From a virus, in the IMG/VR virus record IMGVR_UViG_3300022932_000002, positions 1 through 64,000 of that record: 64,000 nucleotides of DNA; one strand, written 5' to 3'. Made by a program: the position numbers and the translations under genes. Under the pieces are notes generated by a model that ran no database searches, had not been told where the DNA came from, and saw only the letters and a program-made list of their open reading frames with translations. Each line of letters opens with the position of its first letter. Positions within the stretch are counted from its first letter, which is position 1. Below are positions 2,775 through 24,896 of the stretch, in pieces.

Positions 2775-3545
2775 TTAGTTCATTTTTTGATTTACTACTA
2801 ATTCATCAGTTGATTCAATTCCCCAGGCACTTAGAATCAAATATCCTTTTTGTTTATTTCTAAAAACTGGTTGCAATACTACAGGATCAGGGATTTCCAT
2901 TTTAGATAATTTAAAATCTCTAACCTCATAATCCTTTAGATTAAAATCTTTGAGTGGAGCTGCAATTTCAAGCTTTGCTTTAGACATATCATATCTGAGA
3001 TATTGGTGATTTCTTAAATAATCTTTATAATGCTCATAGTCGTAATAACCCCATGTATTTCCTCTAGCACTACTATCTAGATATAGCATATCTTCTTCTT
3101 TAATTGGATTATTTTCAATCTCGGCTAAATTTTTATCCGGAACTGTTCCAATATATCTCCCTATATCTCCATAAACTAAGTTATATTTTTCACAAATTTT
3201 CTTAACTGAGTCTTCTGTAATAAATTTATGAAGAGGATATTTGAAACTAAAATATTCAATTATTTCAGCCATTTTCTTCTTCTCATTATTTATTTTATCG
3301 ATTTCTGCAAGTTTACTTGATTCTTTTTCTGCTAAAATAACTTCGGCAGTAGCTCCAAATCCTAATCTTCTTAATCTTCTAGCTTTTTCGAAAACTTCTT
3401 CTTCTACAGTTGTGTTGGATTGTAAAGTAATCTTAGCATCAGCTAATAATTTATCTACTTCTGAATAAAAAGCTTGATGAATTTCTTCTACAATTTTATT
3501 CATTTCTATAATCTTACTTTCTTTACTTTTAAATAATTTAATCAT
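2775..3545 (-). CDS. hypothetical protein
   Basis: ORF track 2775..3629 trimmed to internal ATG at 3545 (MIKLFKS), which removes the 74-nt overlap with the upstream gene. Confidence 0.6.
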   Translation of the reverse strand: MIKLFKSKESKIIEMNKIVEEIHQAFYSEVDKLLADAKITLQSNTTVEEEVFEKARRLRRLGFGATAEVILAEKESSKLAEIDKINNEKKKMAEIIEYFSFKYPLHKFITEDSVKKICEKYNLVYGDIGRYIGTVPDKNLAEIENNPIKEEDMLYLDSSARGNTWGYYDYEHYKDYLRNHQYLRYDMSKAKLEIAAPLKDFNLKDYEVRDFKLSKMEIPDPVVLQPVFRNKQKGYLILSAWGIESTDELVVNQKMN

Positions 3546-3555
3546 GGTATCAATT

Positions 3556-4371
3556 TTAATTATTGTAAACTCTTCTTGTTTTTCCACTTTTATAAAGAAT
3601 AATGACATATCCTTTATCTTCTTTTCCACAAGGTTGTCCTAGTAGATTAAGTACTTCTTCAACTTCTTCTTCCTTTACTCTATTGTCAATTGAAATAGTT
3701 TCATGTACCTTTTGTTTTCCATTTTTTACTGTTACTAATCTATAGTAATTAATAACAGGCTTGAAAGCATCATCAATTGTGAAATAGTCAATATTAGAAG
3801 AAGCATTAGTAATATTAATCTGCTCCCAATCAATTGCATCAATACTTCTTTCAATAATATAGGTATCACAATCATTATCAGGATTAATTCCCCAAATAAT
3901 AGAATTTACACCATCTATATATTGACCACTGAAGTAAATGAATTCAAGTGGTAATTGAGAGAAGCTACAATTCACAACTTGATAAGGTAAATTAGGTCCT
4001 TGAATAGTAAGATTGATACTATTACATAGATTGGATAATGTCAAACTACTGCAATCTCCACTAAATGAACTAGTAGATGAATAGGTAAAACCATTACCTT
4101 CTGTTTGAGGAATACCATCGAAGAATACATTATTATTACCACAATGAATAGTTCCTTGTAGTGTATATAGACTAGATGGTACATTAGGTCCTGTGAAATC
4201 TACAGAGTATCTTAGTAATACTTTATAAGTACAACCTCCACCATTTGTTGTAATTTGTAAACTGATTGGTTCTATTACTACATGTACATCATAATTCTGA
4301 GAATGAATGATACATTGAGTAAAAGATATTTGTTGAATTAATAAACAGATTAATAATATTAGATTTTTCAT
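3556..4371 (-). CDS. secreted protein with signal peptide and T9SS-type C-terminal sorting-domain-like tail
   Basis: N-terminus MKNLILLICLLIQQISFTQ. The W..ERS.D...W...Y.F.D....YYRL module is typical of Bacteroidota surface proteins. C-terminus LNLLGQPCGKEDKGYVIILYKSGKTRRV resembles the Por secretion tail. Confidence 0.55.
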   Translation of the reverse strand: MKNLILLICLLIQQISFTQCIIHSQNYDVHVVIEPISLQITTNGGGCTYKVLLRYSVDFTGPNVPSSLYTLQGTIHCGNNNVFFDGIPQTEGNGFTYSSTSSFSGDCSSLTLSNLCNSINLTIQGPNLPYQVVNCSFSQLPLEFIYFSGQYIDGVNSIIWGINPDNDCDTYIIERSIDAIDWEQINITNASSNIDYFTIDDAFKPVINYYRLVTVKNGKQKVHETISIDNRVKEEEVEEVLNLLGQPCGKEDKGYVIILYKSGKTRRVYNN

Positions 4372-4431
4372 AGTTTTTACTTTAAATTTGATTAAATAAA
4401 AATCCCCAATAAATTAATATTAGGGATTAAG

Positions 4432-4514
4432 TGCTCTGAAGGGGACTCGAACCCCTATGCCTAACGGCGGCAAATTTTAAGTCTGCTATGTATACCAAGT
4501 TTCATCACCAGAGC
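4432..4514 (-). tRNA. tRNA-Leu (anticodon TAA), type II with long variable arm
   Basis: Hand-folded cloverleaf: acceptor GCTCTGG/TCAGAGC, anticodon stem GCAGA/TTTGC, loop CTTAAAA, variable arm GCC-GTTA-GGC, T arm AGGGG-TTCGAGT-CCCCT. No encoded CCA. Confidence 0.85.
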
Positions 4515-4524
4515 ATAACTTACT

Positions 4525-4869
4525 TTATTTAGTAAGTTTAATTAATGTTTGAGAAGGATTGAGTTCTTGCCAAACCATATTCTTCTTTTTAAGCTGTTTT
4601 AAGAGCACTTTGTTATAATCTTCATCATAATATAAGATTAAAGTATCTTCGCTAATCTCATAGACTCCTGTGTTCAAATTACCGCTAGGCTCTACTCCAT
4701 TGATATAGAATTTCTGCCAAGTATAGGTATCTTCTGAGAAATTGTATTCTGTGTAAGTGGATGCATAGGTATTAGTAGTCCATTTACCTTCTAATCTTCT
4801 TTCATTTCTTTTTTCCTTATTACATGCTGTTAATACCAGCAAAATAAGAATTGTATAAATTGTTTTCAT
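4525..4869 (-). CDS. putative lipoprotein
   Basis: Signal peptide with lipobox: MKTIYTILILLVLTAC. Confidence 0.65.
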   Translation of the reverse strand: MKTIYTILILLVLTACNKEKRNERRLEGKWTTNTYASTYTEYNFSEDTYTWQKFYINGVEPSGNLNTGVYEISEDTLILYYDEDYNKVLLKQLKKKNMVWQELNPSQTLIKLTK

Positions 4870-5087
4870 AATTTTAGTTTTACTCTAATTTGTTCTCTTA
4901 ATATTTTTATTCGTTTGTCATGTTCTACAAACTCTTCTTTAGACATAAATCTAATTTTAGACATTCTGTCAGTAGTTCCATCATTTCTTTTCACTACATA
5001 TGAGTTTGTAGTTTCTCTAATTATCTTATATTCTTTACCATATGTAAGTAATCCTTCATAAGGCAAATGACATATTTTACTTTCCAT
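4866..5087 (-). CDS. hypothetical protein
   Basis: ORF track; 4-nt overlap with the downstream gene. Confidence 0.6.
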   Translation of the reverse strand: MESKICHLPYEGLLTYGKEYKIIRETTNSYVVKRNDGTTDRMSKIRFMSKEEFVEHDKRIKILREQIRVKLKL

Positions 5088-5244
5088 AATCTTTCATTGG
5101 TAAAACAAGTAATTTACCTGTCTTATGTGTTGAGTGTTCTAATTGTTTCTTCTTCCAGTTACAAACAGAACTTGGTTTGTTTTTTTCAATAGTTTCTTTA
5201 ATGGTCCCATTTACTATCCAAACAAGTTTATATAGTGTTTCCAT
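5077..5244 (-). CDS. hypothetical small protein (55 aa)
   Basis: Hand-found ORF below the track cutoff (METLYKLVWIVNG...). Its stop overlaps the next start (ATGGAAAGTAA) and it fills an otherwise empty gap. Confidence 0.45.
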   Translation of the reverse strand: METLYKLVWIVNGTIKETIEKNKPSSVCNWKKKQLEHSTHKTGKLLVLPMKDYGK

Positions 5245-5257
5245 AGTTATTTAGTTT

Positions 5258-6007
5258 TTAATGATTTCTAAAGCTTTTTACAGGATCAAATCCTTTAGCT
5301 TCAAGTTTTTGCTTAGAGGTACGCTCTTCATTTAATTTATTATAATTTAACCAGTACCTAAAAGTTTCTTCATCCATATGATTATAAGAACCTCTATTAC
5401 GTTTTTTATCAAGTTTATATTGTTTTCTACGTTCTGCTCGTAGTTTTAACAATATAGGATCACTAGGTCTATCAAATTCTTTTCTATAACCAGAAACAAT
5501 CACTTTTGAATAATTAGGATTTTCTTCATGATTACTATAATTATCCATAAATGAATAATAGCTTTTAGCCTCACAACCCGCGCCTGTAAATTTCCATTCT
5601 TCTTTAAAATTAAAAGAAGTAAACACAATAGGACGTTTAAGATGATTTTTATATCTTTTATATCTTTTATATATAGGAGCATTTTCACCTTTATATTCTT
5701 GAATTAATCCTTTTTCATCAATATAATACTCAGCAACATAACTACGAAAAGTTTCAAAATAATCAAGAAAAAGATATTGGTAACGTTGTTCTACTTTAGA
5801 ACAAAATTTACTGAATTCTTTAGCAAAAGATTTACCTACAGCTTGTTCAATCATTCTTTTAGCTAATTTTTGATCATTCCATCTACAACGATATCTGTAA
5901 TATATGACATTCCACATATCTCCATATCGTCTAGTTAGATTAGCTGCTCTGTTTTCTCTAAAAGGAAGATTTTCTAATTCTGTTTCTTCCCAATTATTTA
6001 ACCACAT
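5258..6007 (-). CDS. hypothetical protein
   Basis: ORF track; 249 aa, basic, Tyr/Arg-rich; no motif recognised. Confidence 0.65.
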   Translation of the reverse strand: MWLNNWEETELENLPFRENRAANLTRRYGDMWNVIYYRYRCRWNDQKLAKRMIEQAVGKSFAKEFSKFCSKVEQRYQYLFLDYFETFRSYVAEYYIDEKGLIQEYKGENAPIYKRYKRYKNHLKRPIVFTSFNFKEEWKFTGAGCEAKSYYSFMDNYSNHEENPNYSKVIVSGYRKEFDRPSDPILLKLRAERRKQYKLDKKRNRGSYNHMDEETFRYWLNYNKLNEERTSKQKLEAKGFDPVKSFRNH

Positions 6008-6009
6008 AA

Positions 6010-6423
6010 TTATTTAATTAAATTTAATGCTTCTTGTAATCCAGCTTCTAGTGCTTCTTCATGGGTTTCAAAATAACTATACTTATCCCCCATTTGTTTA
6101 AGTTTATTATCATAAGCTATTTCAAAGAAGCATTTCTTATTCTTATTATTATCTGCATAACTAGGTAAAGCAGTTACATAAATATTATGAACTTCTCTAA
6201 GCCATTTCTGAAGTAAGGTTTGTCTAACTAAGTGAATTCTTTCTATATTATCTTTGGGAGATTCTTTATAATAATCATATGTTCTTTTAGTATATATACC
6301 TTTTGTTAAAGTACCTGATTCACTAATTTTAGGTGGGTTATAAACCACTAATACTGAAAGCTCATTAAAACCTTTTTCCTTTGCTAGTTTAGCTGTTTCT
6401 AGTGAAATTAATTCTTCTTCCAT
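6010..6423 (-). CDS. hypothetical protein
   Basis: ORF track; 2-nt spacing to neighbours. Confidence 0.65.
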   Translation of the reverse strand: MEEELISLETAKLAKEKGFNELSVLVVYNPPKISESGTLTKGIYTKRTYDYYKESPKDNIERIHLVRQTLLQKWLREVHNIYVTALPSYADNNKNKKCFFEIAYDNKLKQMGDKYSYFETHEEALEAGLQEALNLIK

Positions 6424-6425
6424 AA

Positions 6426-6641
6426 TTAAATAGTTTCTTTACCTCTACTTACTAAATCTAAAGCCAGAAGTATAAGAGAGTTCATCATTGATATTCCAGC
6501 ATCTGTCTCATTTTCTACTTCTAGAGCTAATTCTTCTCCACTATAGACTTTTCCGCCATAGCTTATATAAGATGAGATACCTTTTCTTTTAAGATTTTTT
6601 ACTAGAGCTTGTTTTAGCTTATCTATATTTTCTTCTTGCAT
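6426..6641 (-). CDS. hypothetical protein
   Basis: ORF track; tight spacing. Confidence 0.6.
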   Translation of the reverse strand: MQEENIDKLKQALVKNLKRKGISSYISYGGKVYSGEELALEVENETDAGISMMNSLILLALDLVSRGKETI

Positions 6642-6643
6642 AA

Positions 6644-6841
6644 TTAAATAAATCTTGCTTTAATTTGATTAAAATTCCACAGAATACATTCATAGACTTC
6701 TTCAGACTCTCCAATTAACTTTGATCCTTTTACAATGTCTGTCATATTAATTTTTCCTGATTCTCTTACATGTTGAAATTTCTTAAGTTGTCTTTCAGTA
6801 ATATCTTTAATTTCTATGTTTTCTTTGAAGTGCTTACTCAT
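6644..6841 (-). CDS. hypothetical protein
   Basis: ORF 6644..6907 trimmed to MSKHFKEN at 6841, giving an ATGAGTAA start/stop overlap with the upstream gene. Confidence 0.55.
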   Translation of the reverse strand: MSKHFKENIEIKDITERQLKKFQHVRESGKINMTDIVKGSKLIGESEEVYECILWNFNQIKARFI

Positions 6842-7064
6842 CGCTTCCGTATGTTTGGTTATACCACTCAATCGGCAAACCATTATCAGGACAAAACTTC
6901 GTTTCATAAGCCTTTTCCAGCCGCGGCCGCTCGGTGGTGGATTTATGCTTCTCTAAAATAGATACAGCCGCACTACATGCTATCAATAACGATGTACTTC
7001 CGCCTTCCATTGTTGATTTCAGTTCCTCAATCGCGATCTGCATCGCCGTTTTCTGCTTTTCCAT
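6834..7064 (-). CDS. hypothetical protein, compositionally atypical (GC-richer)
   Basis: ORF track. Locally much higher GC, including GCGGCCGC at about 6922. Confidence 0.6.
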   Translation of the reverse strand: MEKQKTAMQIAIEELKSTMEGGSTSLLIACSAAVSILEKHKSTTERPRLEKAYETKFCPDNGLPIEWYNQTYGSDE

Positions 7065-7435
7065 TAATTTTCTAATTTAATCCAACCTAATTCTATTTGT
7101 TGTTCAACGCTATAACCCATCCACGGCAAAGCGTAACCTTTTGAGCGCAGATAGTCAAGTTTGAAATTATCTTCATAATCATCAGATAAATCTATTTTAG
7201 CCTGTGAAATACGAAATTCGTTTTCATCAACTCCTATAGAATTTAAATATTCAACAGCATCTTCATCAGTAATTTGAGAAAGTGGTTTTAATTTAGCATA
7301 AATACCATTAATGAATTCTGGTCTGAAAATTTCTAAACCTGAAACATTGAGTCCTAAACTGTCAAGAAATATATCTTGCCCCCAATATTGAGCAAAGAAT
7401 TTTGCTTTGTCTTCTATACTTGCGTTTGTTTCCAT
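7064..7435 (-). CDS. hypothetical protein
   Basis: ORF track; start/stop abut the neighbours. Confidence 0.65.
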   Translation of the reverse strand: METNASIEDKAKFFAQYWGQDIFLDSLGLNVSGLEIFRPEFINGIYAKLKPLSQITDEDAVEYLNSIGVDENEFRISQAKIDLSDDYEDNFKLDYLRSKGYALPWMGYSVEQQIELGWIKLEN

Positions 7436-7599
7436 GTGTTTTCTACTTTAGCTCCATACCAATCTTTTTTACCACCCTCTGGATAAATAGTTTTAAAACC
7501 TTTAGCTGTATCAAGTGTTTGAGGTTTCATAGTGTTTTCTAAATTACAATCTGTAGCTAATTTAGAAGGATAAAATAGAGTTCTTAATAATTTAAACAT
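7414..7599 (-). CDS. hypothetical small protein
   Basis: ORF 7414..7650 trimmed to MFKLLRT at 7599, because the longer N-terminus runs into tRNA-Arg. Confidence 0.5.
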   Translation of the reverse strand: MFKLLRTLFYPSKLATDCNLENTMKPQTLDTAKGFKTIYPEGGKKDWYGAKVENTWKQTQV

Positions 7600-7631
7600 A
7601 ATATTAGTTTTTAGTTGTTTATAATTTATAG

Positions 7632-7705
7632 CGATTCTAGAAGGATTCAAACCTTCAACCTATGTCTTAGAAGGACATGGCTCTATTCAGTTGAGCTATA
7701 GAATC
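7632..7705 (-). tRNA. tRNA-Arg (anticodon TCT)
   Basis: Cloverleaf: acceptor GATTCTA/TAGAATC, D stem GCTC/GAGC, anticodon stem ATGTC/GACAT, loop CTTCTAA, T arm GAAGG-TTTGAAT-CCTTC. D loop lacks GG and T loop has T instead of C56. Confidence 0.85.
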
Positions 7706-7714
7706 TAAAGATAT

Positions 7715-7900
7715 TTATTTATCTTTAATGTCAATATAGCCAATAATGACTCCTGTTCCAGTAAAAATACCTACTGTATAGATAATTTCAGCTTTACCAA
7801 CTGGTTCCCAATTACAACTTACAGCTTTATAAATACATCTACACCATCCGAAAATTGCTACAATATAAAGTGCAATAATAACAATACTAATTTTTCCCAT
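7715..7900 (-). CDS. hypothetical small membrane protein
   Basis: Two hydrophobic segments (ISIVIIALYIVAIFGW, IIYTVGIFTGTGVIIGYI); sits between two tRNAs. Confidence 0.6.
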   Translation of the reverse strand: MGKISIVIIALYIVAIFGWCRCIYKAVSCNWEPVGKAEIIYTVGIFTGTGVIIGYIDIKDK

Positions 7901-7922
7901 TTTATTTATTTTTAATTAATAG

Positions 7923-7996
7923 TGGTCCCACACAGGCTCGAACTGTGGACCCACAGATTATGAGTCTGTTGCTCTAACCAACTGAGCTATAGGACC
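7923..7996 (-). tRNA. tRNA with CAT anticodon (elongator Met type, or Ile2 if lysidine-modified)
   Basis: Cloverleaf: GGTCCTA/TGGGACC acceptor, GCTC-AGTTGGTTA-GAGC, anticodon stem ACAGA/TCTGT, loop CTCATAA, T arm CACAG-TTCGAGC-CTGTG. Not initiator-like (G1-C72, no GGG/CCC in anticodon stem). Confidence 0.9.
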
Positions 7997-9571: not shown

Positions 9572-9931
9572 ATTATTAACTTTAATTTATTTTCTATTAG
9601 CACCTTCAGCATTAAGCGCATTATTCTCATATGCTACTAACTTACTCTCTTAATCTGTAGGGTCACTAGTAGTAAGTGGAATTTTACCACCTCTTTTCAG
9701 CACTCCTTATAAAAGGACTTACTTGCTTTCTCATTGTAAGCTATTACTACTATTGCTGAGAACTCATTTGTGTTGTGCACCTCCATTCATAGTGTACATG
9801 CTCTAGGAGTTCCTTTCTCAAGGGAACAACACATGACAACTTTCATTGCCCATTCTTATTTATACTCGTGTCAATGTTTTCCGAGCTTACTTAGGGGCGC
9901 CAATCTACCAAGTAATTTATTAAATTATTTA

Positions 9932-15811: not shown

Positions 15812-15922
15812 GTGAGGGAGACAGGATTCGAACCTGTGACCATAACCCTGCCCTTACGGGTGATCCTCTTTCGTAGGTTTTATACCAAAGCTCTACCACT
15901 GAGCTACATTACATATCCACCT
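15812..15922 (-). ncRNA. aberrant tRNA-like element (possible tRNA pseudogene or fused tRNA halves)
   Basis: Canonical D arm GCTC-AGTGGTA-GAGC (plus 15890-15904) and T arm ACAGG-TTCGAAT-CCTGT (plus 15821-15837). The spacer is 52 nt and the acceptor halves TGTAATG and CTCCCTC cannot pair. I could not find a normal anticodon arm. Confidence 0.5.
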
Positions 15923-15927
15923 ATTTC

Positions 15928-16791
15928 TTATTCAGCAACAGCAGCAGTAGGCGCTGGGATATTTGTTACACTAACTTTAGTAGCTCCTGCTCTAGCAACC
16001 ATGATATCTTTAGCAATGTCTTGAATACCTCTACTTTCATAGATTTTCATTGCTGTAGAAATATCAATAGCCTGGCGTGTTTGCTCATCTAAGTCAAATG
16101 TAAGAGTGATAAAGTTTAATTGAACTCCTAGTTTACCTAAGACTTCATTAGCTTTCTCATGTAATTCATCCTCAAGCTTACTTTGGTCAATCTCAACAAT
16201 ATCTTCAAGAATAAACATTTCTTTACTAATGTCTTTGATTCTTTTGTCAATTACCATATTTTCAGCACCTTCAAATGCACTGTCGTCAGGTTCATCTCCA
16301 TCAGAATTAGCTTTACCAAGATACTTAGCTTGTTTAATAAAGAGGAGAGGATCTGTGATTGTGTAATCATAGTCAATTTCAACTGATGCTCTTACTCTAC
16401 CTTTCAAGTTAGTAATAAAGTTAGCGGCTCCCTGCATTGGATAATTAGGGATAATTACTTTCATAAAGCAATAATTACCTACACCTTTAGGAACACTTTC
16501 TCCAGCACTGATCTTTTCCCAAGTAACGCCACAGTCAGTAGATACAACTACTTGTTGATTTGATTTGGCATGTTGACATGATGCTGTGACTAACATCAAG
16601 CCTGTTACTACAAAAATATAGTGTTTACAGAATTGAAACAATAGTGCTATTGCTAGCATGATACCTAGAGTTACAAAAGCTACTGAAACAAAACCAGCAT
16701 GTTCAAACCAATTAGTTTGAAATAGTTTAAATACTCCAAATCCAAGGAGTGTTGTAATAAATAGTACTGTGATAATGATTACTTTCTTCAT
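15928..16791 (-). CDS. membrane-anchored SPFH/band-7 (stomatin/prohibitin-like) domain protein
   Basis: N-terminal hydrophobic helices plus a possible lipobox LVTASC. The rest has SPFH-like layout (ASVEIDYDYTITDPLLFI ... LGVQLNFITLTFDLDEQTRQAID). Confidence 0.5.
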   Translation of the reverse strand: MKKVIIITVLFITTLLGFGVFKLFQTNWFEHAGFVSVAFVTLGIMLAIALLFQFCKHYIFVVTGLMLVTASCQHAKSNQQVVVSTDCGVTWEKISAGESVPKGVGNYCFMKVIIPNYPMQGAANFITNLKGRVRASVEIDYDYTITDPLLFIKQAKYLGKANSDGDEPDDSAFEGAENMVIDKRIKDISKEMFILEDIVEIDQSKLEDELHEKANEVLGKLGVQLNFITLTFDLDEQTRQAIDISTAMKIYESRGIQDIAKDIMVARAGATKVSVTNIPAPTAAVAE

Positions 16792-21718: not shown

Positions 21719-22066
21719 TTATTTATTTAGTGTTTTTAGTTGGTATCTCATTACTTTAAATTCTCTGTACCTAATAGATTTTAGACTATCTATATATCTA
21801 AAGTTTCCAGTATCGTATTTATTGATGTTTCTGTATCTTGATTTTAATACATAAACAGAGTCTTGATAGAATACTTTTTGATATATTTTTTCTCTGTCTT
21901 TATCACTATCAGTTTTTAAATTAGTAAAGAAACATGTGACTATTAAACCTATTACAATCATGGCTATTAGACATCCTGACTCACTTCTAAATTCTTGTTT
22001 TGGTTTGTCCATAATATATAATATTGTTATTAGTATTATTATTGTTATGTATTTATAGCTTTCCAT
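21719..22066 (-). CDS. hypothetical membrane protein
   Basis: Hydrophobic segments YITIIILITILYI and CLIAMIVIGLIVTCFF. Confidence 0.6.
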   Translation of the reverse strand: MESYKYITIIILITILYIMDKPKQEFRSESGCLIAMIVIGLIVTCFFTNLKTDSDKDREKIYQKVFYQDSVYVLKSRYRNINKYDTGNFRYIDSLKSIRYREFKVMRYQLKTLNK

Positions 22067-22487
22067 TATTATTTGGATTGATTAAATTGTTTATATCATC
22101 ATCCATATATATTTTAGATGCTGTTTCATTAATATAATCAACTGAACCAATTATAATACCTTCTACTTCTTCTCCTGGTTCTTGTTTTTTTAATATTAGA
22201 TTCCATCCTAAATCTTGAGTAGCTAATATAATTAGAATTAAAGGATGAACTTTTTCTTCATCCGAATTGAATTTAAGTGCTTCATAATTTATTAAAGTAC
22301 TAGTAAGTAGTTTCTTTAATGCTTGTTCAGGAGTGATTTTACTTGTTATGTAATTGTATAATTCTTCTGCATTCATAATCTTTAATTTAGTGATAATATT
22401 AATATCAATTTTGATGTGTGGAAAGTCAAAAAAGGGTTGAAAGTAGGGGTTTGAGATGGTGTTGGGTAGTAACTCTCTTACAATCAT
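22053..22487 (-). CDS. hypothetical protein (start uncertain; alternative ATG at 22376)
   Basis: ORF track. The first 37 codons have odd composition, and MNAEELYNYI at 22376 looks like a more natural start. Confidence 0.55.
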   Translation of the reverse strand: MIVRELLPNTISNPYFQPFFDFPHIKIDINIITKLKIMNAEELYNYITSKITPEQALKKLLTSTLINYEALKFNSDEEKVHPLILIILATQDLGWNLILKKQEPGEEVEGIIIGSVDYINETASKIYMDDDINNLINPNNNGKL

Positions 22488-24159
22488 CTACTTAACTCTC
22501 ACATTTACTATGCAAAGCATAACAATTTTACTAATCTTTTAAAATAATAGAGTGTGCTTAGCTTCTGACGCTGTTATACACCACATTTTCCTCTCTATTA
22601 CCACCTGTACTTGCGTCAAGACACTTCTGTCTGTTTGACTCCAACTATAACTCAGGGTTAGTATTATAAATTAAACTAGGACTACTCCTAAACACTAATC
22701 GTAGGCTACCTCTAAGAGGGAACTAGTTTAATTTAATATTTTAAAAACAACTACAATTATTTAATAATATATAGGTTTTCACCATTATTAAAATAATCGT
22801 AGTTATTTAAGTGTCTACAATTACTGGTACGCATAGGACCGCCAGATTTACATTATAGATAAATATTTTAAAAACAACTATCTGTCACATTTCCAGTGTG
22901 AATATATAATAATATGCAACTTTATACGACTCACGTAGTGTCCACATAAAATATACATCTCTACAATAAACAAACAGCTAACTGGATTAGCTTATAATAA
23001 ACACGATATTATCCTCGTTAGTTTCACACCATTTATTACTGTTTATCTTCAAGCAGATAGTTGTCAATTCTTTTAATAATAACAGACTTTAACTGTTTGT
23101 AATATCTCTTCTGGAAATTCTATTAGAATTAAGTACAGTTCAATTTTTATACAAGCTATGAATTTCACATATATTTTTATTAGATATTTAGGCTCACTAT
23201 TCAAACTTCAACATTACTAATGCTACCTGCTATTAATAACTCAATTCTTTCGTGGCTAATATTATCATCGATATGATAATACTTACTCGTTTATATCTAA
23301 TATTTCCCCTCCATACTCAATTATAATGAGTGTTTCCATCACTCTAGGTTTCACCTCAACAGAATCTCTTCTTATCTCAGCTATTACAACTGCTATCCCT
23401 TGGGAGTTGATTACTATCACATTCAACTAGTAGCCTCTCATATTTATATAACATGGTTATGCTTTCATCGGTGGTTTTTAGTAGTCAAGTGGTTTTACAT
23501 CTTATAGGTTAGCCAAGCTTTTGTCAAGCTGATAAACACAGTGCAGAAGTCTCTATATCCACGATAGAATGGTATGTTAAAGAGAAGGCTTTGAACCACT
23601 AGAGACTTATAACAACTATAATTTTCAAATTGCTGTCTTAATCTAGTATCCTTCCATAGGTGCATTATAATACAAAGGCATCTCACCTCTTTCACTTTGT
23701 AACTAGTGTTACATCAGAGGTATGTATTACTCTGTACCAGACTTTTAACCGAATGTAGTGTGGCTGTTTTCTAACTAGCTTAAACATTGCTATCAGCGGC
23801 AATTATCTTAAAAATACTATTGTGGCCTCGTTACAAATCAACTTAGCATACAATGTAGGTGTACCCTCAATAGTATTAATATAAAAGGAATAGTAGATAA
23901 TAAATGATAAGTTAGCTTTACTTATCCTATAGACTGCTGCCATAGTTTACTTCTACTATTCCAATTCATGAGTAAGTCTCCGCGAGTCTAAGTGGTAGTG
24001 ACACAAAGACATCTAATACAGTATTAATATAGTTCCGGGAGAAACTACATCACTATATTACCTCAATAAAGCTTCATCCCAGTCTTATGTGGTCAGTTTT
24101 ATTTAAAAGGAGCAGAGACTTACTTAATAGTTTTGGTATGAAACACACTTTCTATACCT

Positions 24160-24196
24160 AATATTTTAGAAAGAGAATCACCCTTCCTCAGGGTGA
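24160..24196 (-). terminator. terminator-like hairpin
   Basis: CACCCT-tcctc-AGGGTG at 24179-24195, followed on the minus strand by ATTCTCTTTCTAAAATATT. Confidence 0.4.
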
Positions 24197-24277
24197 AACT
24201 CTAATGTTATTTACATGTTTTCATTGAATACAAACTCCCTTGTAGTCAATACTCCATCAGCTAACACCAACATGGTA

Positions 24278-24382
24278 TTAACGTTTAGATGTAGATTTAA
24301 TTACTCTGTTAGCAAAGATTGCAGACTTCTTAAGTCTTTTCAACAATGCTTTCTCTTCTGATGTTTTGGTAAATGCTGACAT
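24278..24382 (-). CDS. possible small basic protein (34 aa)
   Basis: Hand-found ORF MSAFTKTSEEKALLKRLKKSAIFANRVIKSTSKR. Speculative. Confidence 0.3.
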   Translation of the reverse strand: MSAFTKTSEEKALLKRLKKSAIFANRVIKSTSKR

Positions 24383-24407
24383 AATGATTGGATTTAAAGG
24401 GTTTAAA

Positions 24408-24503
24408 TTATCTTACTAAGCCAAGTACATTGAGTACAATAGCAATAATAACTGGAACAGCTAATACAGCTCCTACAGTGAGATTAATAACACTAGGTTT
24501 CAT
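24408..24503 (-). CDS. possible small membrane peptide (31 aa)
   Basis: Hand-found ORF MKPSVINLTVGAVLAVPVIIAIVLNVLGLVR. Speculative. Confidence 0.35.
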   Translation of the reverse strand: MKPSVINLTVGAVLAVPVIIAIVLNVLGLVR

Positions 24504-24517
24504 ATATGGATTGATTG

Positions 24518-24555
24518 ATTACAAAGAATAAGAGAGAGCCATTACAGCCCTCTCT
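24518..24555 (-). terminator. intrinsic terminator after ORF 24564..24896
   Basis: On the minus-strand RNA: AGAGAGGGC-UGUAAUG-GCUCUCUCU, a 9-bp stem whose one non-Watson-Crick pair is G-U only on this strand, then UAUUCUUUG. Confidence 0.6.
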
Positions 24556-24563
24556 AAATGATA

Positions 24564-24896
24564 TTATGCAGCGTCAGTACCGTCTTCAACAGTAACAACA
24601 GCAGGTGTACCCAGTACAACCTTACCTTCACCAAGTGCAGTACGCAGCTCCAAATACTCTCGGATGCCTACCTCACTGATAATCTTTACTTGTACATTGT
24701 CAGGATACTCAGGATTCACATGATTCTCACAAGCATAGAGCTTGTTAGGCTGTAACCCTTCACGTTGGAACATAGTTCCATTCATGATAGTACCTGAGGC
24801 TCTTCCAGCCAATACCTCACCAATCATTGGGAAGTTGCCATTTTTGTCTGCGGTGAATGGTGCACCAGTTGTGGATTGAAATTTAGCTACGAACAT
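24564..24896 (-). CDS. hypothetical protein, GC-richer, apparently monocistronic first gene of the minus-strand block
   Basis: ORF track; distinct composition (spawns antisense ORF 24558..24755); own terminator; adjacent to the divergent promoter region. Confidence 0.7.
   Translation of the reverse strand: MFVAKFQSTTGAPFTADKNGNFPMIGEVLAGRASGTIMNGTMFQREGLQPNKLYACENHVNPEYPDNVQVKIISEVGIREYLELRTALGEGKVVLGTPAVVTVEDGTDAA

What the first reader, a model, noticed from the sequence alone, without database searches (positions are those of the whole stretch)
22488..24277. About 1.8-kb ORF-free, stop-saturated island inside the early gene block
Elsewhere in this window genes abut or overlap by a few nucleotides. 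This stretch has no plausible ORF: the only track ORF of 60 aa or more, 23495..23695, has a Cys/Trp/Tyr-rich composition unlike any neighbour. I hand-checked minus-strand stops over 22501-22680. All three stop types recur, so reassigning a single stop codon cannot open a frame. The sequence is visibly less AT-rich than the flanking genes and keeps the same strand skew (C over G on plus) as the transcribed minus-strand genes. Local structure includes a perfect 9-bp hairpin TATTATCAT-cgat-ATGATAATA (23260-23281), CACCCT/AGGGTG (24179-24195) and AGCTT/AAGCT (about 23517-23531). Candidate explanations are one or more large structured non-coding RNAs, a replication origin or regulatory hub, or heavily decayed genes. 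Large ornate RNAs such as GOLLD and ROOL are known to be phage or prophage encoded, often near tRNAs.
Basis: partly seen in the sequence, partly recalled or inferred. Interest (0 to 1): 0.8.

Follow-up and report, generated by a model that had tools for sequence, protein, structure and literature searches.

The report
Phage non-coding island with new RNA
The 1.9-kb gene-free stretch in this crAss-like phage is real, and it holds at least one small folded RNA from a phage-only family, absent from the Rfam RNA catalogue, that sits among tRNA genes in other phages; most of the stretch remains unexplained.

Summary
Window 22377-24277 has no credible ORF, its stop density matches random sequence, and it is the only such 1.8-kb stretch in the 64 kb.

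It is not GOLLD, ROOL, a tmRNA, an intron or a row of decayed genes.

On the minus strand at 23065..22873 lies a 193-nt RNA ("RNA1"). It belongs to a conserved family that I assembled from about 17 distinct phage sequences. Its parts are:
- a 10-12-bp closing helix, seen in 13 sequence versions;
- a loop-E-like internal loop;
- a three-way junction with one variable arm;
- a loop-loop kissing interaction, seen in 8 co-varying versions.

Rfam 15 has no match. No bacterial or archaeal genome carries it.

In two contigs RNA1 sits inside 22-23-gene tRNA arrays. It is also present in the cultured crAss-like phage phi14:2, whose early intergenic regions are published as abundant, stable non-coding RNAs of unknown function.

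The rest of the island contains several strongly folding stem-closed units. About 350 nt are conserved, with a non-coding substitution pattern, in one relative. The remaining sequence is lineage-specific.

Best reading: a cluster of small non-coding RNA elements in the early region. Function is unknown.

The parts
24170..24205 (-). Intrinsic-terminator-like hairpin (GAGUUUCACCCUGAGGAAGGGUGAUUCUCUUU) that ends the upstream 110-aa / 31-aa / 34-aa gene group. It marks the upstream edge of the island.
   Evidence: Terminator scan. Fold -17.8 kcal/mol, z = -3.96.
23971..24124 (-). A 154-nt stem-closed unit. A 13-bp closing helix (AGUAAGUCUCUGC/GCGGAGACUUACU) encloses three branches. It carries CCACUUAGA next to its 3' strand, as in one RNA1 subtype. 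No homologue was found.
   Evidence: Inverted repeat I15. MFE -52.3 kcal/mol, z = -6.36, 0 of 200 shuffles as stable. Helix listing. Not hit by model R1.
23887..23962 (-). A 76-nt stem-closed unit (11-bp helix GGAAUAGUAGA/UCUACUAUUCC, no G-U pairs), 8 nt after the previous unit.
   Evidence: Long-range helix listing.
23813..23877 (-). A 65-nt stem-closed unit (about 10-13-bp helix) followed by UUUUUAAGAUAAU, 9 nt after the previous unit.
   Evidence: Inverted repeat I14. Fold z = -1.7. Helix listing.
23482..23580 (-). A block conserved at 68% with relative L138 (1330-1426). Stop codons lie inside the conserved stretches.
   Evidence: blastn E = 5e-7. tblastx fragments contain stops and change frame. 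Alignment.
23300..23405 (-). A candidate second conserved RNA element. The helix UCCC..CAGUUGUAAU / AUUAUAAUUG..GGGG is kept in L138 through G-U to Watson-Crick changes, around an interior that varies in sequence and length.
   Evidence: blastn 23425-23057 vs L138 1452-1834, E = 7e-8. Indels are not multiples of 3 and there is no third-position excess. RNAalifold gives 15 pairs, 4 with one-sided changes. Only two sequences are available.
23260..23281 (.). Perfect palindromic hairpin UAUUAUCAU-cgau-AUGAUAAUA (extends to 11 bp).
   Evidence: Fold z = -3.79.
22873..23065 (-). RNA1, a 193-nt member of a conserved phage RNA family.
- P0: 23065-23054 pairs with 22884-22873.
- 5' domain 23053-22959: loop-E-like P1 extension, P1 (AUAAACA/UGUUUAU), and P2 with a variable insert.
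- P3 hairpin: 22992-22976.
- P5 hairpin: 22901-22885.
- Kissing pairs: P3 loop UCCAG (22986-22982) with P5 loop CUGGA (22896-22892).
   Evidence: Model R1 scores 66.2 bits, E about 1e-10, and this is the only strong hit in the window. MFE reproduces P0, P1, P2, P3 and P5, z = -3.15. Covariation.
22745..22872 (-). Two stable hairpins directly after RNA1. The segment ends in a 19-nt exact copy (22753..22735) of the RNA1 3' end plus spacer (22880..22862), UAGUUGUUUUUAAAAUAUU. It looks like a partial tandem duplicate of the RNA1 3' half.
   Evidence: Direct repeat D3. Fold z = -3.76. 18-bp helix.
22667..22735 (-). A 69-nt stem-closed unit (13-bp helix UAAAUUAAACUAG/CUAGUUUAAUUUA, no G-U pairs).
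   Evidence: Inverted repeat I1. Fold z = -1.8. Helix listing.
22377..22487 (-). Probably non-coding leader. The mechanical ORF 22053..22487 starts here, but the gene caller and the homologues start at 22376.
   Evidence: Homologues align only to residues 36-125. Called gene is 107 aa, L012 12521-12844.

Best explanation
The island is non-coding DNA read leftward (minus strand), downstream of the terminator-like hairpin at 24196-24178. It carries a cluster of small structured RNA elements. It is not genes, and it is not one giant RNA.

Shown. One element, RNA1 (23065..22873, 193 nt), belongs to a conserved, phage-restricted RNA family with a compact fold. A 10-12-bp helix joins its two ends. 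Next comes a loop-E-like internal loop, then a three-way junction whose second arm tolerates inserts of 20-150 nt. A Watson-Crick kissing interaction joins the loop of hairpin P3 to the loop of hairpin P5.

Shown. The same RNA lies on the tRNA strand inside 22-23-gene tRNA arrays in two phage contigs. It lies in early-region gaps of other crAss-like phages, including Cellulophaga phage phi14:2.

Inferred. RNA1 is excised from a longer early transcript as a stable small RNA, in the way tRNAs are, and acts in trans through its shape. It could be a protein-binding scaffold or a decoy linked to the phage's tRNA, tmRNA and translation toolkit. I cannot say which.

Inferred, and weaker. The flanking stem-closed units (24124..23813 and 22872..22667) and the 23580..23225 segment, which is conserved in one relative with a non-coding pattern, are further lineage-specific RNA elements. 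They do not look like junk.
For: No coding capacity.
- Stop statistics match random sequence.
- tblastx against relatives finds no protein conservation.
- Six-frame translation against PHROGs gives 0 hits at E <= 1.

RNA1 is a real family member.
- Model R1 gives 66 bits in the window on the minus strand against 6 bits on the plus strand.
- It gives 59-92 bits in 15 other loci.
- It gives 32.5 bits, E = 7.6e-5, in phi14:2.

The 5' domain co-varies.
- 96.4% of cells pair, and 18 of 23 pairs show compensatory change.
- 0 of 500 shuffles reach the observed values; slid controls pair at 37-62%.

P0 co-varies.
- There are 13 distinct versions.
- 98.7% pair with their own partner against 58% in cross-pairings.

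The kissing loop co-varies.
- At least 4 Watson-Crick pairs occur in 13 of 13 sequences, in 7 versions: CUAG/CUAG, UCAG/CUGA, UCCAG/CUGGA, CUAAG/CUUAG, CAGG/CCUG, GCUAAA/UUUAGC and UCUAAG/CUUAGA. Cross-pairings reach this in 15%.
- An eighth version, UAUCA/UGAUA, is in phi14:2.

Single-sequence folding recovers the comparative fold.

Context.
- RNA1 sits inside tRNA arrays in L044 and L033.
- Tandem diverged copies occur in L084 and L033.
- RNA1 is conserved at nucleotide level between phages whose shared proteins are only 25-40% identical.

Published precedent. The long early-region intergenic regions of phi14:2 are transcribed above most genes and remain stable (10.1101/2020.03.07.982082).

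Rest of the island.
- 24130..23965 folds with z = -6.4, and 22872..22750 with z = -3.8.
- The minus strand has 17 long-range helices of at least 10 bp, against 7.6 in shuffles.
- 23580..23225 is 60-68% identical to L138, while the adjacent protein gene is 69% identical. Stops lie inside the conserved blocks, indels are not multiples of 3, and there is no third-position excess.
Against: - Only 193 nt (10%) is assigned to a family with strong evidence, and about 350 nt more to a two-sequence comparison.
- The remaining 1.3 kb or so has no detectable homologue in any locus I obtained, by blastn, nhmmer or CM. That includes relatives whose neighbouring 110-aa protein is 64-76% identical.
- Sliding-window fold z-scores are near zero over much of 23100-23850.
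- The excess of long-range helices is modest. Two of 70 control strand-segments equal or exceed it.
- No transcript data exist for this phage.
- No promoter was identified: a Bacteroidota-type -33/-7 search found none on the minus strand.
- The function of RNA1 is unknown. No conserved protein neighbour was found.
Confidence: 0.6

Rival explanations
1. Mostly dispensable spacer or decayed DNA, such as remnants of lost early genes, that happens to contain one small RNA gene (RNA1) and a terminator. The extra hairpins would be chance products of AT-rich sequence.
For: - Stop density equals the random expectation.
- About 70% of the island has no homologue, even in phages with a 64-76% identical neighbouring protein.
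- Relatives carry different content at this position: ORFs in L003 12610-15091, and other RNA blocks in L003, L010 and L137.
- Fold z-scores are near 0 for much of the middle.
Against: - No protein remnants were found in any frame.
- Genes are tightly packed elsewhere in the window.
- 23580..23225 is conserved about as well as the adjacent coding gene, but with a non-coding pattern.
- 24130..23965 has z = -6.4.
- Three stem-closed units lie head to tail, 8-9 nt apart.
- The analogous 1.7-kb early gap of phi14:2 is highly transcribed.
Confidence: 0.22
2. Replication origin or another DNA-level regulatory hub next to the divergent early/late switch.
For: - The island lies 0.3-2.5 kb from the strand switch at about 24.9-25.3 kb.
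- The cumulative GC-skew minimum is at about 24.8-25.0 kb.
- There is a perfect palindrome at 23260-23281.
Against: - The skew minimum lies outside the island.
- The island is GC-richer than the early genes to its left, not an AT-rich unwinding element.
- There are no iterons or arrays of direct repeats, only one 19-nt duplicate.
- The RNA1 helices use G-U pairs and score on one strand only, 66 against 6 bits, which indicates RNA rather than duplex DNA.
Confidence: 0.08
3. One large ornate RNA of about 1.8 kb, GOLLD- or ROOL-like, spanning the whole island.
For: - The island is phage-encoded, ORF-free and structured in places.
- Its strand skew is the same throughout.
Against: - No Rfam hit, even at E <= 10.
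- RNA1 is a self-contained unit, bounded by tRNA genes on both sides in L044.
- Conservation is patchy and the units are individually closed by terminal helices.
- Fold z-scores are near zero between the units.
Confidence: 0.05
4. A tiling of very small protein genes (under 60 aa) missed by ORF thresholds.
For: - Gene callers called 50-64-aa ORFs in the homologous part of L138.
- Small ORFs of 31-47 aa exist on the minus strand.
Against: - Window and L138 ORFs do not correspond in frame or sequence.
- Conserved blocks contain stop codons.
- Indels are of 1, 2, 4 and 5 nt.
- Mismatches are 36/46/41 at codon positions 1/2/3.
- Most of the window's small ORFs start with TTG or GTG.
Confidence: 0.05

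Closest known systems
Early-region 'long non-coding RNAs' of Cellulophaga crAss-like phage phi14:2 (Drobysheva et al., bioRxiv 10.1101/2020.03.07.982082)
   Same: - Both are crAss-like phages with roughly 1.7-1.9 kb of ORF-free sequence inside the early gene block, on the same strand as the early genes.
- In phi14:2, spurious small ORFs were removed from the record in 2020.
- phi14:2 also carries an RNA1 homologue, at 1287-1567.
   Different: - The two highly expressed phi14:2 gaps contain a tmRNA at 4031-4502 and a different conserved element, 'RNA-X', at 2905-3300.
- In the window, RNA-X lies elsewhere, at 9572-9931.
- No tmRNA is present in the window.
- RNA1 in phi14:2 sits in a third gap (g002-g003), whose expression the paper does not discuss.
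- No transcript data exist for the window's phage.
Small stable RNAs embedded in phage tRNA clusters (T4 species 1 and 2 RNAs, rnaC/rnaD; from my own knowledge)
   Same: A small non-tRNA RNA of unknown function on the tRNA strand inside a phage tRNA cluster, presumably matured from the same precursor.
   Different: No sequence or structure relationship was tested or is expected. RNA1 has a kissing-loop pseudoknot and a long closing helix. In the window itself there are no tRNAs next to it.
tmRNA (Rfam RF00023)
   Same: It occurs in the same phage lineage and in the same kind of early-region gap (L033, L007, L008, L011, phi14:2). It is a structured RNA with pseudoknots.
   Different: The island has no T-arm/acceptor module, no tag reading frame, no ARAGORN or Rfam hit, and none of the conserved block of the relatives' tmRNAs.
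GOLLD and ROOL large ornate RNAs (Rfam)
   Same: Phage or prophage association and proximity to tRNA genes (from my own knowledge).
   Different: No covariance-model hit at E <= 10. RNA1 is 165-320 nt, not 500-800 nt.
Bacterial Y-RNA-like RNAs (YrlA, RF02553)
   Same: The 5' and 3' ends are joined in a long helix. There are modular inserts that sometimes look like tRNA T-arms (L084, L079). Both occur in phages near tRNAs.
   Different: No Rfam hit to RNA1. No Ro/Rsr-type gene was seen nearby. The conserved motifs differ.

Membership tests
RNA1 family (defined here; no Rfam accession) | 5' domain: loop-E-like P1 extension (CUUGAAG / UGUARAG), P1 (AUAAACA/UGUUUAU), P2 with a variable insert, and the P3 hairpin, scored by covariance model R1. 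| tested here: met
   Window 22959-23053 (-) scores 66.2 bits, E about 1e-10 to 1e-12, over the full model length. The family range is 59-92 bits.
RNA1 family (defined here; no Rfam accession) | Closing helix P0 of 10-12 bp that joins the sequence just 5' of CUUGAAG to the 3' end and is followed by a U-run. | tested here: met
   GACAACUAUCUG/CAGAUAGUUGUU gives 11 Watson-Crick pairs plus 1 G-U, followed by UUUAAAAUAUU.
RNA1 family (defined here; no Rfam accession) | P5 hairpin abutting the P0 3' strand, whose loop pairs with the P3 loop (kissing interaction). | tested here: met
   P5 is UCACA-CUGGAAA-UGUGA. P3 loop UCCAG pairs with CUGGA, 5 Watson-Crick pairs.
tmRNA | tRNA-like domain (acceptor stem plus T-arm with a GUUCRA-type loop) and a tag reading frame ending in a hydrophobic ..AA. 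| tested here: not met
   ARAGORN finds none in the window. Rfam has no tmRNA hit at E <= 10. A T-arm scan found nothing convincing. The conserved tmRNA block of the relatives is absent.
GOLLD / ROOL / other Rfam large RNAs, group I and II introns, riboswitches | A match to the family's covariance model. | tested here: not met
   cmscan of the whole window at gathering thresholds gives only 3 tRNAs. At E <= 10, 22300-24600 gives only two chance-level hits, SNORA25 and VrrA.
tRNA gene array | Canonical tRNA genes. | tested here: not met
   No tRNA lies in 22300-24700. The window's three tRNAs are at 4431-7996.
Pseudogenes / decayed genes | Colinear protein-level similarity to real proteins, interrupted by stops or frameshifts. 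| tested here: not met
   tblastx against 17 related loci finds none. Six-frame translations with stops masked give 0 PHROG families at E <= 1. I did not search the 5.8-billion-protein collection.
Replication origin | Iterons or initiator boxes next to an AT-rich unwinding element, at the skew switch. | tested here: inconclusive
   No repeat arrays. The island is GC-richer than the left flank, and the skew minimum is at about 24.8-25.0 kb, outside the island. DnaA-box or phage-initiator sites were not searched. Initiation mapping is not possible with these tools.
Stable, processed trans-acting small RNA | A discrete transcript with defined ends that accumulates during infection. | not testable with these tools
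   There is only indirect support: its position inside tRNA arrays and the published stable early ncRNAs in phi14:2.

The most novel reading that the evidence does not exclude
RNA1 is a new functional class of phage RNA that belongs to the tRNA-array toolkit. It could be a ribozyme that helps mature the array. Or it could be an RNA whose kissing hairpins mimic a tRNA elbow and so decoy or inhibit host tRNA-targeting defence nucleases or processing enzymes. The variable P2 arm would then carry lineage-specific specificity modules; some inserts already look like T-arms. On this reading the island is a lineage-specific battery of such RNAs.
Probability: 0.12. Interest if true: 0.85.

Novelty: new variant of a known kind. 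Interest (0 to 1): 0.62.

Why it matters
crAss-like phages are among the most abundant viruses known. In the one transcriptomically studied member, phi14:2, the most persistent early transcripts are non-coding RNAs whose function the authors left open.

This work gives those non-coding regions content:
- a new pseudoknotted RNA family, RNA1;
- a second conserved element, RNA-X;
- a tmRNA.

RNA1 is conserved at the nucleotide level between phages whose shared proteins are only 25-40% identical. It also sits inside tRNA arrays. Both facts argue for a selected function tied to the phage's RNA and translation toolkit.

RNA1 is present in a culturable phage-host pair (phi14:2 and Cellulophaga baltica). 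The question can therefore be tested directly by Northern blot, deletion, structure probing and pull-down.

Tried and rejected
Searches that found nothing.
- blastn of the island against 50,697 GenBank phages found nothing. The same search with an RNA1 sequence also found nothing.
- Rfam at gathering and at E <= 10 found nothing.
- Relaxed ARAGORN gave only noise.
- blastn, tblastx and nhmmer of the island against all related loci recovered only RNA1.
- Apparent hits of 22823-22750 to L005, L011 and L085 were AT-rich noise.
- The window 22744..22658 unit and L008 RNA2 share a short string but not a structure, so I dropped that link.

Relatives through flanking proteins.
- The 144-aa protein gave only distant loci without an island.
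- The GroEL-like protein gave nothing.
- The 110-aa protein gave many loci, but their downstream regions differ.

Pattern scans.
- A loose DNA pattern returned about 90 random AT-rich loci. I filtered these afterwards.
- The metagenome scan gave only 10 stretches.
- The genome scan gave no true hit. The L132 hit lies inside a methyltransferase gene.

Structure searches.
- A generic three-way-junction descriptor was too permissive in AT-rich sequence.
- My first automatic hairpin finder mis-assigned P3 and P5. I replaced it with a manually curated table whose entries were checked against the sequences.

Signals.
- A search for Bacteroidota promoter motifs found none on the minus strand.
- The recurring UUUUUAAAAUAUU-like motif after stems occurs 5 times in the island among 23 minus-strand matches in the window. 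It is too AT-rich to interpret.

Literature.
- The supplement of the IMG/VR structured-RNA catalogue (PMC10690425) is not held. I could not check whether RNA1 is among its 8,495 unnamed candidates.
Full report
**What the window is.** The major capsid protein, portal and large terminase match crAss-like families. The capsid protein is about 40% identical to Bacteroides, Flavobacterium and Cellulophaga crAss-like phages. Genes left of about 24.9 kb run on the minus strand and genes right of 25.3 kb run on the plus strand. The cumulative GC skew turns at about 24.8-25.0 kb. An identical 95-kb contig exists in public assemblies.

**Check of the observation.** In 22488-24277 the longest stop-free stretch in any frame is 72 codons. 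Shuffled copies give 79 on average. Reassigning TAA opens 163 codons in one plus-strand frame; every other frame and reassignment stays at or below 97, so no frame opens across the island. No other 1.79-kb stretch of the window is this closed. The downstream gene really starts at 22376, so the gap is about 1.9 kb. The claim 'less AT-rich than the flanks' is true only relative to the left flank.

**Known families are excluded.**
- Rfam 15 finds only three tRNAs in the whole window, all far from the island. At E <= 10 it finds nothing meaningful in 22300-24600.
- ARAGORN finds no tRNA or tmRNA in the island.
- GenBank phages have no blastn match.
- There is no protein-level similarity to related loci.
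- The six reading frames, with stops masked, match no PHROG family.

**Finding relatives.** The 110-aa protein just upstream (24564..24896, minus) has 98 homologues. I fetched the contigs that encode several of them. One IMG/VR contig (L003) shares two short DNA blocks with window 22957-23058. The same blocks recur in L005 and L008. They also recur in about 16 IMG/VR contigs found by a pattern scan and in a few metagenome contigs.

**RNA1.** Aligning these sequences shows an RNA of 165-320 nt. In the window it is 23065..22873 on the minus strand, 193 nt. Its elements, in order, are:
- **P0.** A 10-12-bp helix joins the ends and is followed by a U-run. There are 13 distinct sequence versions. 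They pair at 98.7% with their own partner and at 58% with partners from other sequences.
- **P1 extension.** CUUGAAG lies opposite UGUARAG. This gives C-G, U-A and U-R pairs, then G.A, A-U and A.G, a loop-E-like core, then G.U.
- **P1.** AUAAACA pairs with UGUUUAU. Compensatory versions include AUAAAU/AUUUAU, AUAAACG/CGUUUAU and AUGGACA with G.U pairs.
- **P2.** AUAAUA pairs with UAUUAU and caps a variable insert of 20-150 nt. In L084 the insert contains a T-arm-like hairpin.
- **P3.** A hairpin.
- **A variable region.**
- **P5.** A hairpin that abuts the 3' strand of P0.

A covariance model of the 5' domain (R1) scores 66 bits in the window on the minus strand, 6 bits on the plus strand, and nothing else in the window above 19 bits. 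It scores 59-92 bits in 15 other loci. On the model-fitted alignment, 96.4% of cells pair and 18 of 23 pairs show compensatory change. No shuffle out of 500 reaches these values, and slid controls pair at 37-62%. That alignment leans towards the model, and it includes two weak hits.

**A tertiary contact.** The P3 loop is complementary to the P5 loop in every sequence, and the pair co-varies. The versions are CUAG/CUAG, UCAG/CUGA, UCCAG/CUGGA (the window), CUAAG/CUUAG, CAGG/CCUG, GCUAAA/UUUAGC and UCUAAG/CUUAGA. All 13 of 13 sequences reach at least 4 Watson-Crick pairs, against 15% of cross-pairings. An eighth version, UAUCA/UGAUA, is in phi14:2. The P5 stem itself co-varies: UCCA/UGGA, UCACA/UGUGA, GAAG/CUUC and CCAG/CUGG. 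Minimum-free-energy folding of the window sequence alone reproduces P0, P1, P2, P3 and P5, with z = -3.15.

**Where RNA1 lives.**
- In L044 it fills the gap between tRNA-Glu and tRNA-Ala in a 23-tRNA array. In L033 it lies in a 21-tRNA array that ends in an Rfam-recognised tmRNA. In both it is on the tRNA strand.
- L084 and L033 carry a second, diverged copy directly downstream. That copy has the same architecture but largely different sequence.
- No bacterial or archaeal genome in the 185,579-species collection carries it. The one weak hit lies inside a methyltransferase gene.
- It has no constant protein neighbour.
- The phages that carry it share few proteins with the window, at 25-40% identity.

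**A cultured precedent.** Drobysheva et al. reported on the crAss-like Cellulophaga phage phi14:2. Two long intergenic regions of its early block are transcribed above most genes, appear early and stay stable. [quoted passage not shown] In the GenBank record the small ORFs there were removed in 2020, which leaves 2905-4601 ORF-free. I find three elements in that early block:
- an RNA1 homologue at 1287-1567, with R1 at 32.5 bits and P0 AAGCUCUUUA/UAAAGAGCUU;
- a tmRNA at 4031-4502, with Rfam at 46 bits (gathering score 47) and an ARAGORN tag GSSVQKLAMVA;
- a third conserved element, RNA-X, at 2905-3300, shared with L084, L008 and L022.

In the window RNA-X lies elsewhere, at 9572-9931. No tmRNA block is present in the window.

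**The rest of the island.**
- On the minus strand, three stem-closed units follow the terminator head to tail, with 8-9-nt spacers: 24124..23971, 23962..23887 and 23877..23813.
- The first of these folds at -52 kcal/mol with z = -6.4.
- After RNA1 come two stable hairpins, z = -3.8, which end in an exact 19-nt copy of the RNA1 3' end. A 69-nt unit closed by 13 bp follows.
- The minus strand has 17 helices of at least 10 bp that close 40-260 nt. Shuffles give 7.6 (maximum 14), and other window segments give 3-18. This is a modest excess.

One closer relative is L138, whose 110-aa protein is 76% identical. It aligns to 23580..23482 at 68% and to 23425..23057 at 60.5%. The neighbouring coding gene is 69% identical at the DNA level. 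The conserved blocks contain stop codons and shift frame. Indels are 1, 2, 4 or 5 nt. Mismatches are even across codon positions, 36/46/41. A long helix (UCCC..CAGUUGUAAU / AUUAUAAUUG..GGGG) is kept through four G-U to Watson-Crick changes around a variable interior. This looks like a second RNA element, but it rests on two sequences only. Everything else in the island has no detectable homologue.

**Interpretation.** The best-supported reading is a cluster of small non-coding RNA elements in the early region. One of them is a bona fide member of a new, phage-restricted, pseudoknotted RNA family. Its position inside tRNA arrays, and the phi14:2 precedent, suggest a stable RNA matured from a longer transcript and acting through its shape. 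Its function is unknown. The main rival is that most of the island is dispensable spacer around RNA1. Neither an origin of replication, a single giant RNA, nor tiny genes has positive support.

**Novelty.** Phage-encoded small structured RNAs are a known kind. This family is absent from Rfam 15, and I found no description of it in the literature searches. I could not check whether it is one of the thousands of unnamed IMG/VR candidates in PMC10690425.

Noticed in passing
window 9572-9931 (minus strand); core at 9750-9776: A second non-coding gap holds a conserved element, 'RNA-X'. Its near-invariant core is ACAACACAAAUGAGUUCUCAGCAA, preceded by UGUUGUUCCCUUGAGAAAGG. The arrangement UGUUGU..UUGAGAA / ACAACA..UUCUCA suggests a possible pseudoknot. 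It is homologous to phi14:2 2905-3300 (one of the published abundant early non-coding RNAs), L084 8071-8412, L008 15051-15222 and L022 5311-5459. Rfam does not match it.
   Followed up: partly
L134 (phi14:2, NC_021806) 4031-4502; L007 ~15850-16470; L008 15934-16439; L011 ~4454-4739: phi14:2 carries a tmRNA: Rfam 46 bits against a gathering score of 47, E = 2.6e-16, with ARAGORN tag GSSVQKLAMVA. It fills the g005-g006 'long non-coding RNA' gap and is not among the record's annotated features. Homologous genes in window relatives have long tag frames ending ..LIAA or ..VMAA and escape ARAGORN and the Rfam thresholds. The window has none.
   Followed up: partly
window 24564-24896 (minus), 110-aa protein: The first gene of the leftward block is 64-76% identical among phages whose terminase and portal are only 30-40% identical. 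It has no PHROG match. It is unusually conserved for an early phage protein.
   Followed up: no
L003 10865-10960; L010 8528-8625; L137 and L138 just after the 110-aa gene: Another stem-closed non-coding block (..CCGACAUUA..AUUGAAGAAAGCUGUUAUAAUAAGU.UUGGUUACAGC..) is more than 95% identical between L003 and L010. It is present in L137 and L138 and absent from the window. Related phages fill the same position with different RNA-like elements.
   Followed up: partly
L084 7293-7486 and 7500-7680; L033 4952..4755 and 4743..4524 (minus): RNA1 occurs as tandem diverged paralogues. The second copy keeps P0, P1, P2, P3 and the kissing pair, but with largely different sequence.
   Followed up: yes
L033 ~4520-4330 (minus); similar starts after RNA1 in L022 and L079: A type-II-like tRNA (GGUCAGGUGGCGGAAUGGUAGACGC ... 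CAGGUUCGAAUCCUGUCCUGACUA) has an insertion of about 130 nt and was missed by ARAGORN. It may be an intron-containing tRNA.
   Followed up: no
window 22377-22487: The mechanical ORF 22053..22487 (144 aa) is probably 107 aa and starts at 22376. The first 37 codons have no counterpart in the homologues and were not called by the gene caller.
   Followed up: yes
window 24408-24503 and 24278-24382 (minus): Two tiny ORFs lie between the 110-aa gene and the island. One is a 31-aa hydrophobic peptide (MKPSVINLTVGAVLAVPVIIAIVLNVLGLVR), preceded by a strong terminator-like hairpin at 24555..24531. The other is a 34-aa basic peptide. Neither is conserved in the relatives examined.
   Followed up: no
window 4431-4514, 7631-7705, 7922-7996; L007 10594-10681, 18092-18372: The window and relative L007 carry the same tRNA trio: Leu-UAA, Arg-UCU and Met-CAU.
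   Followed up: no
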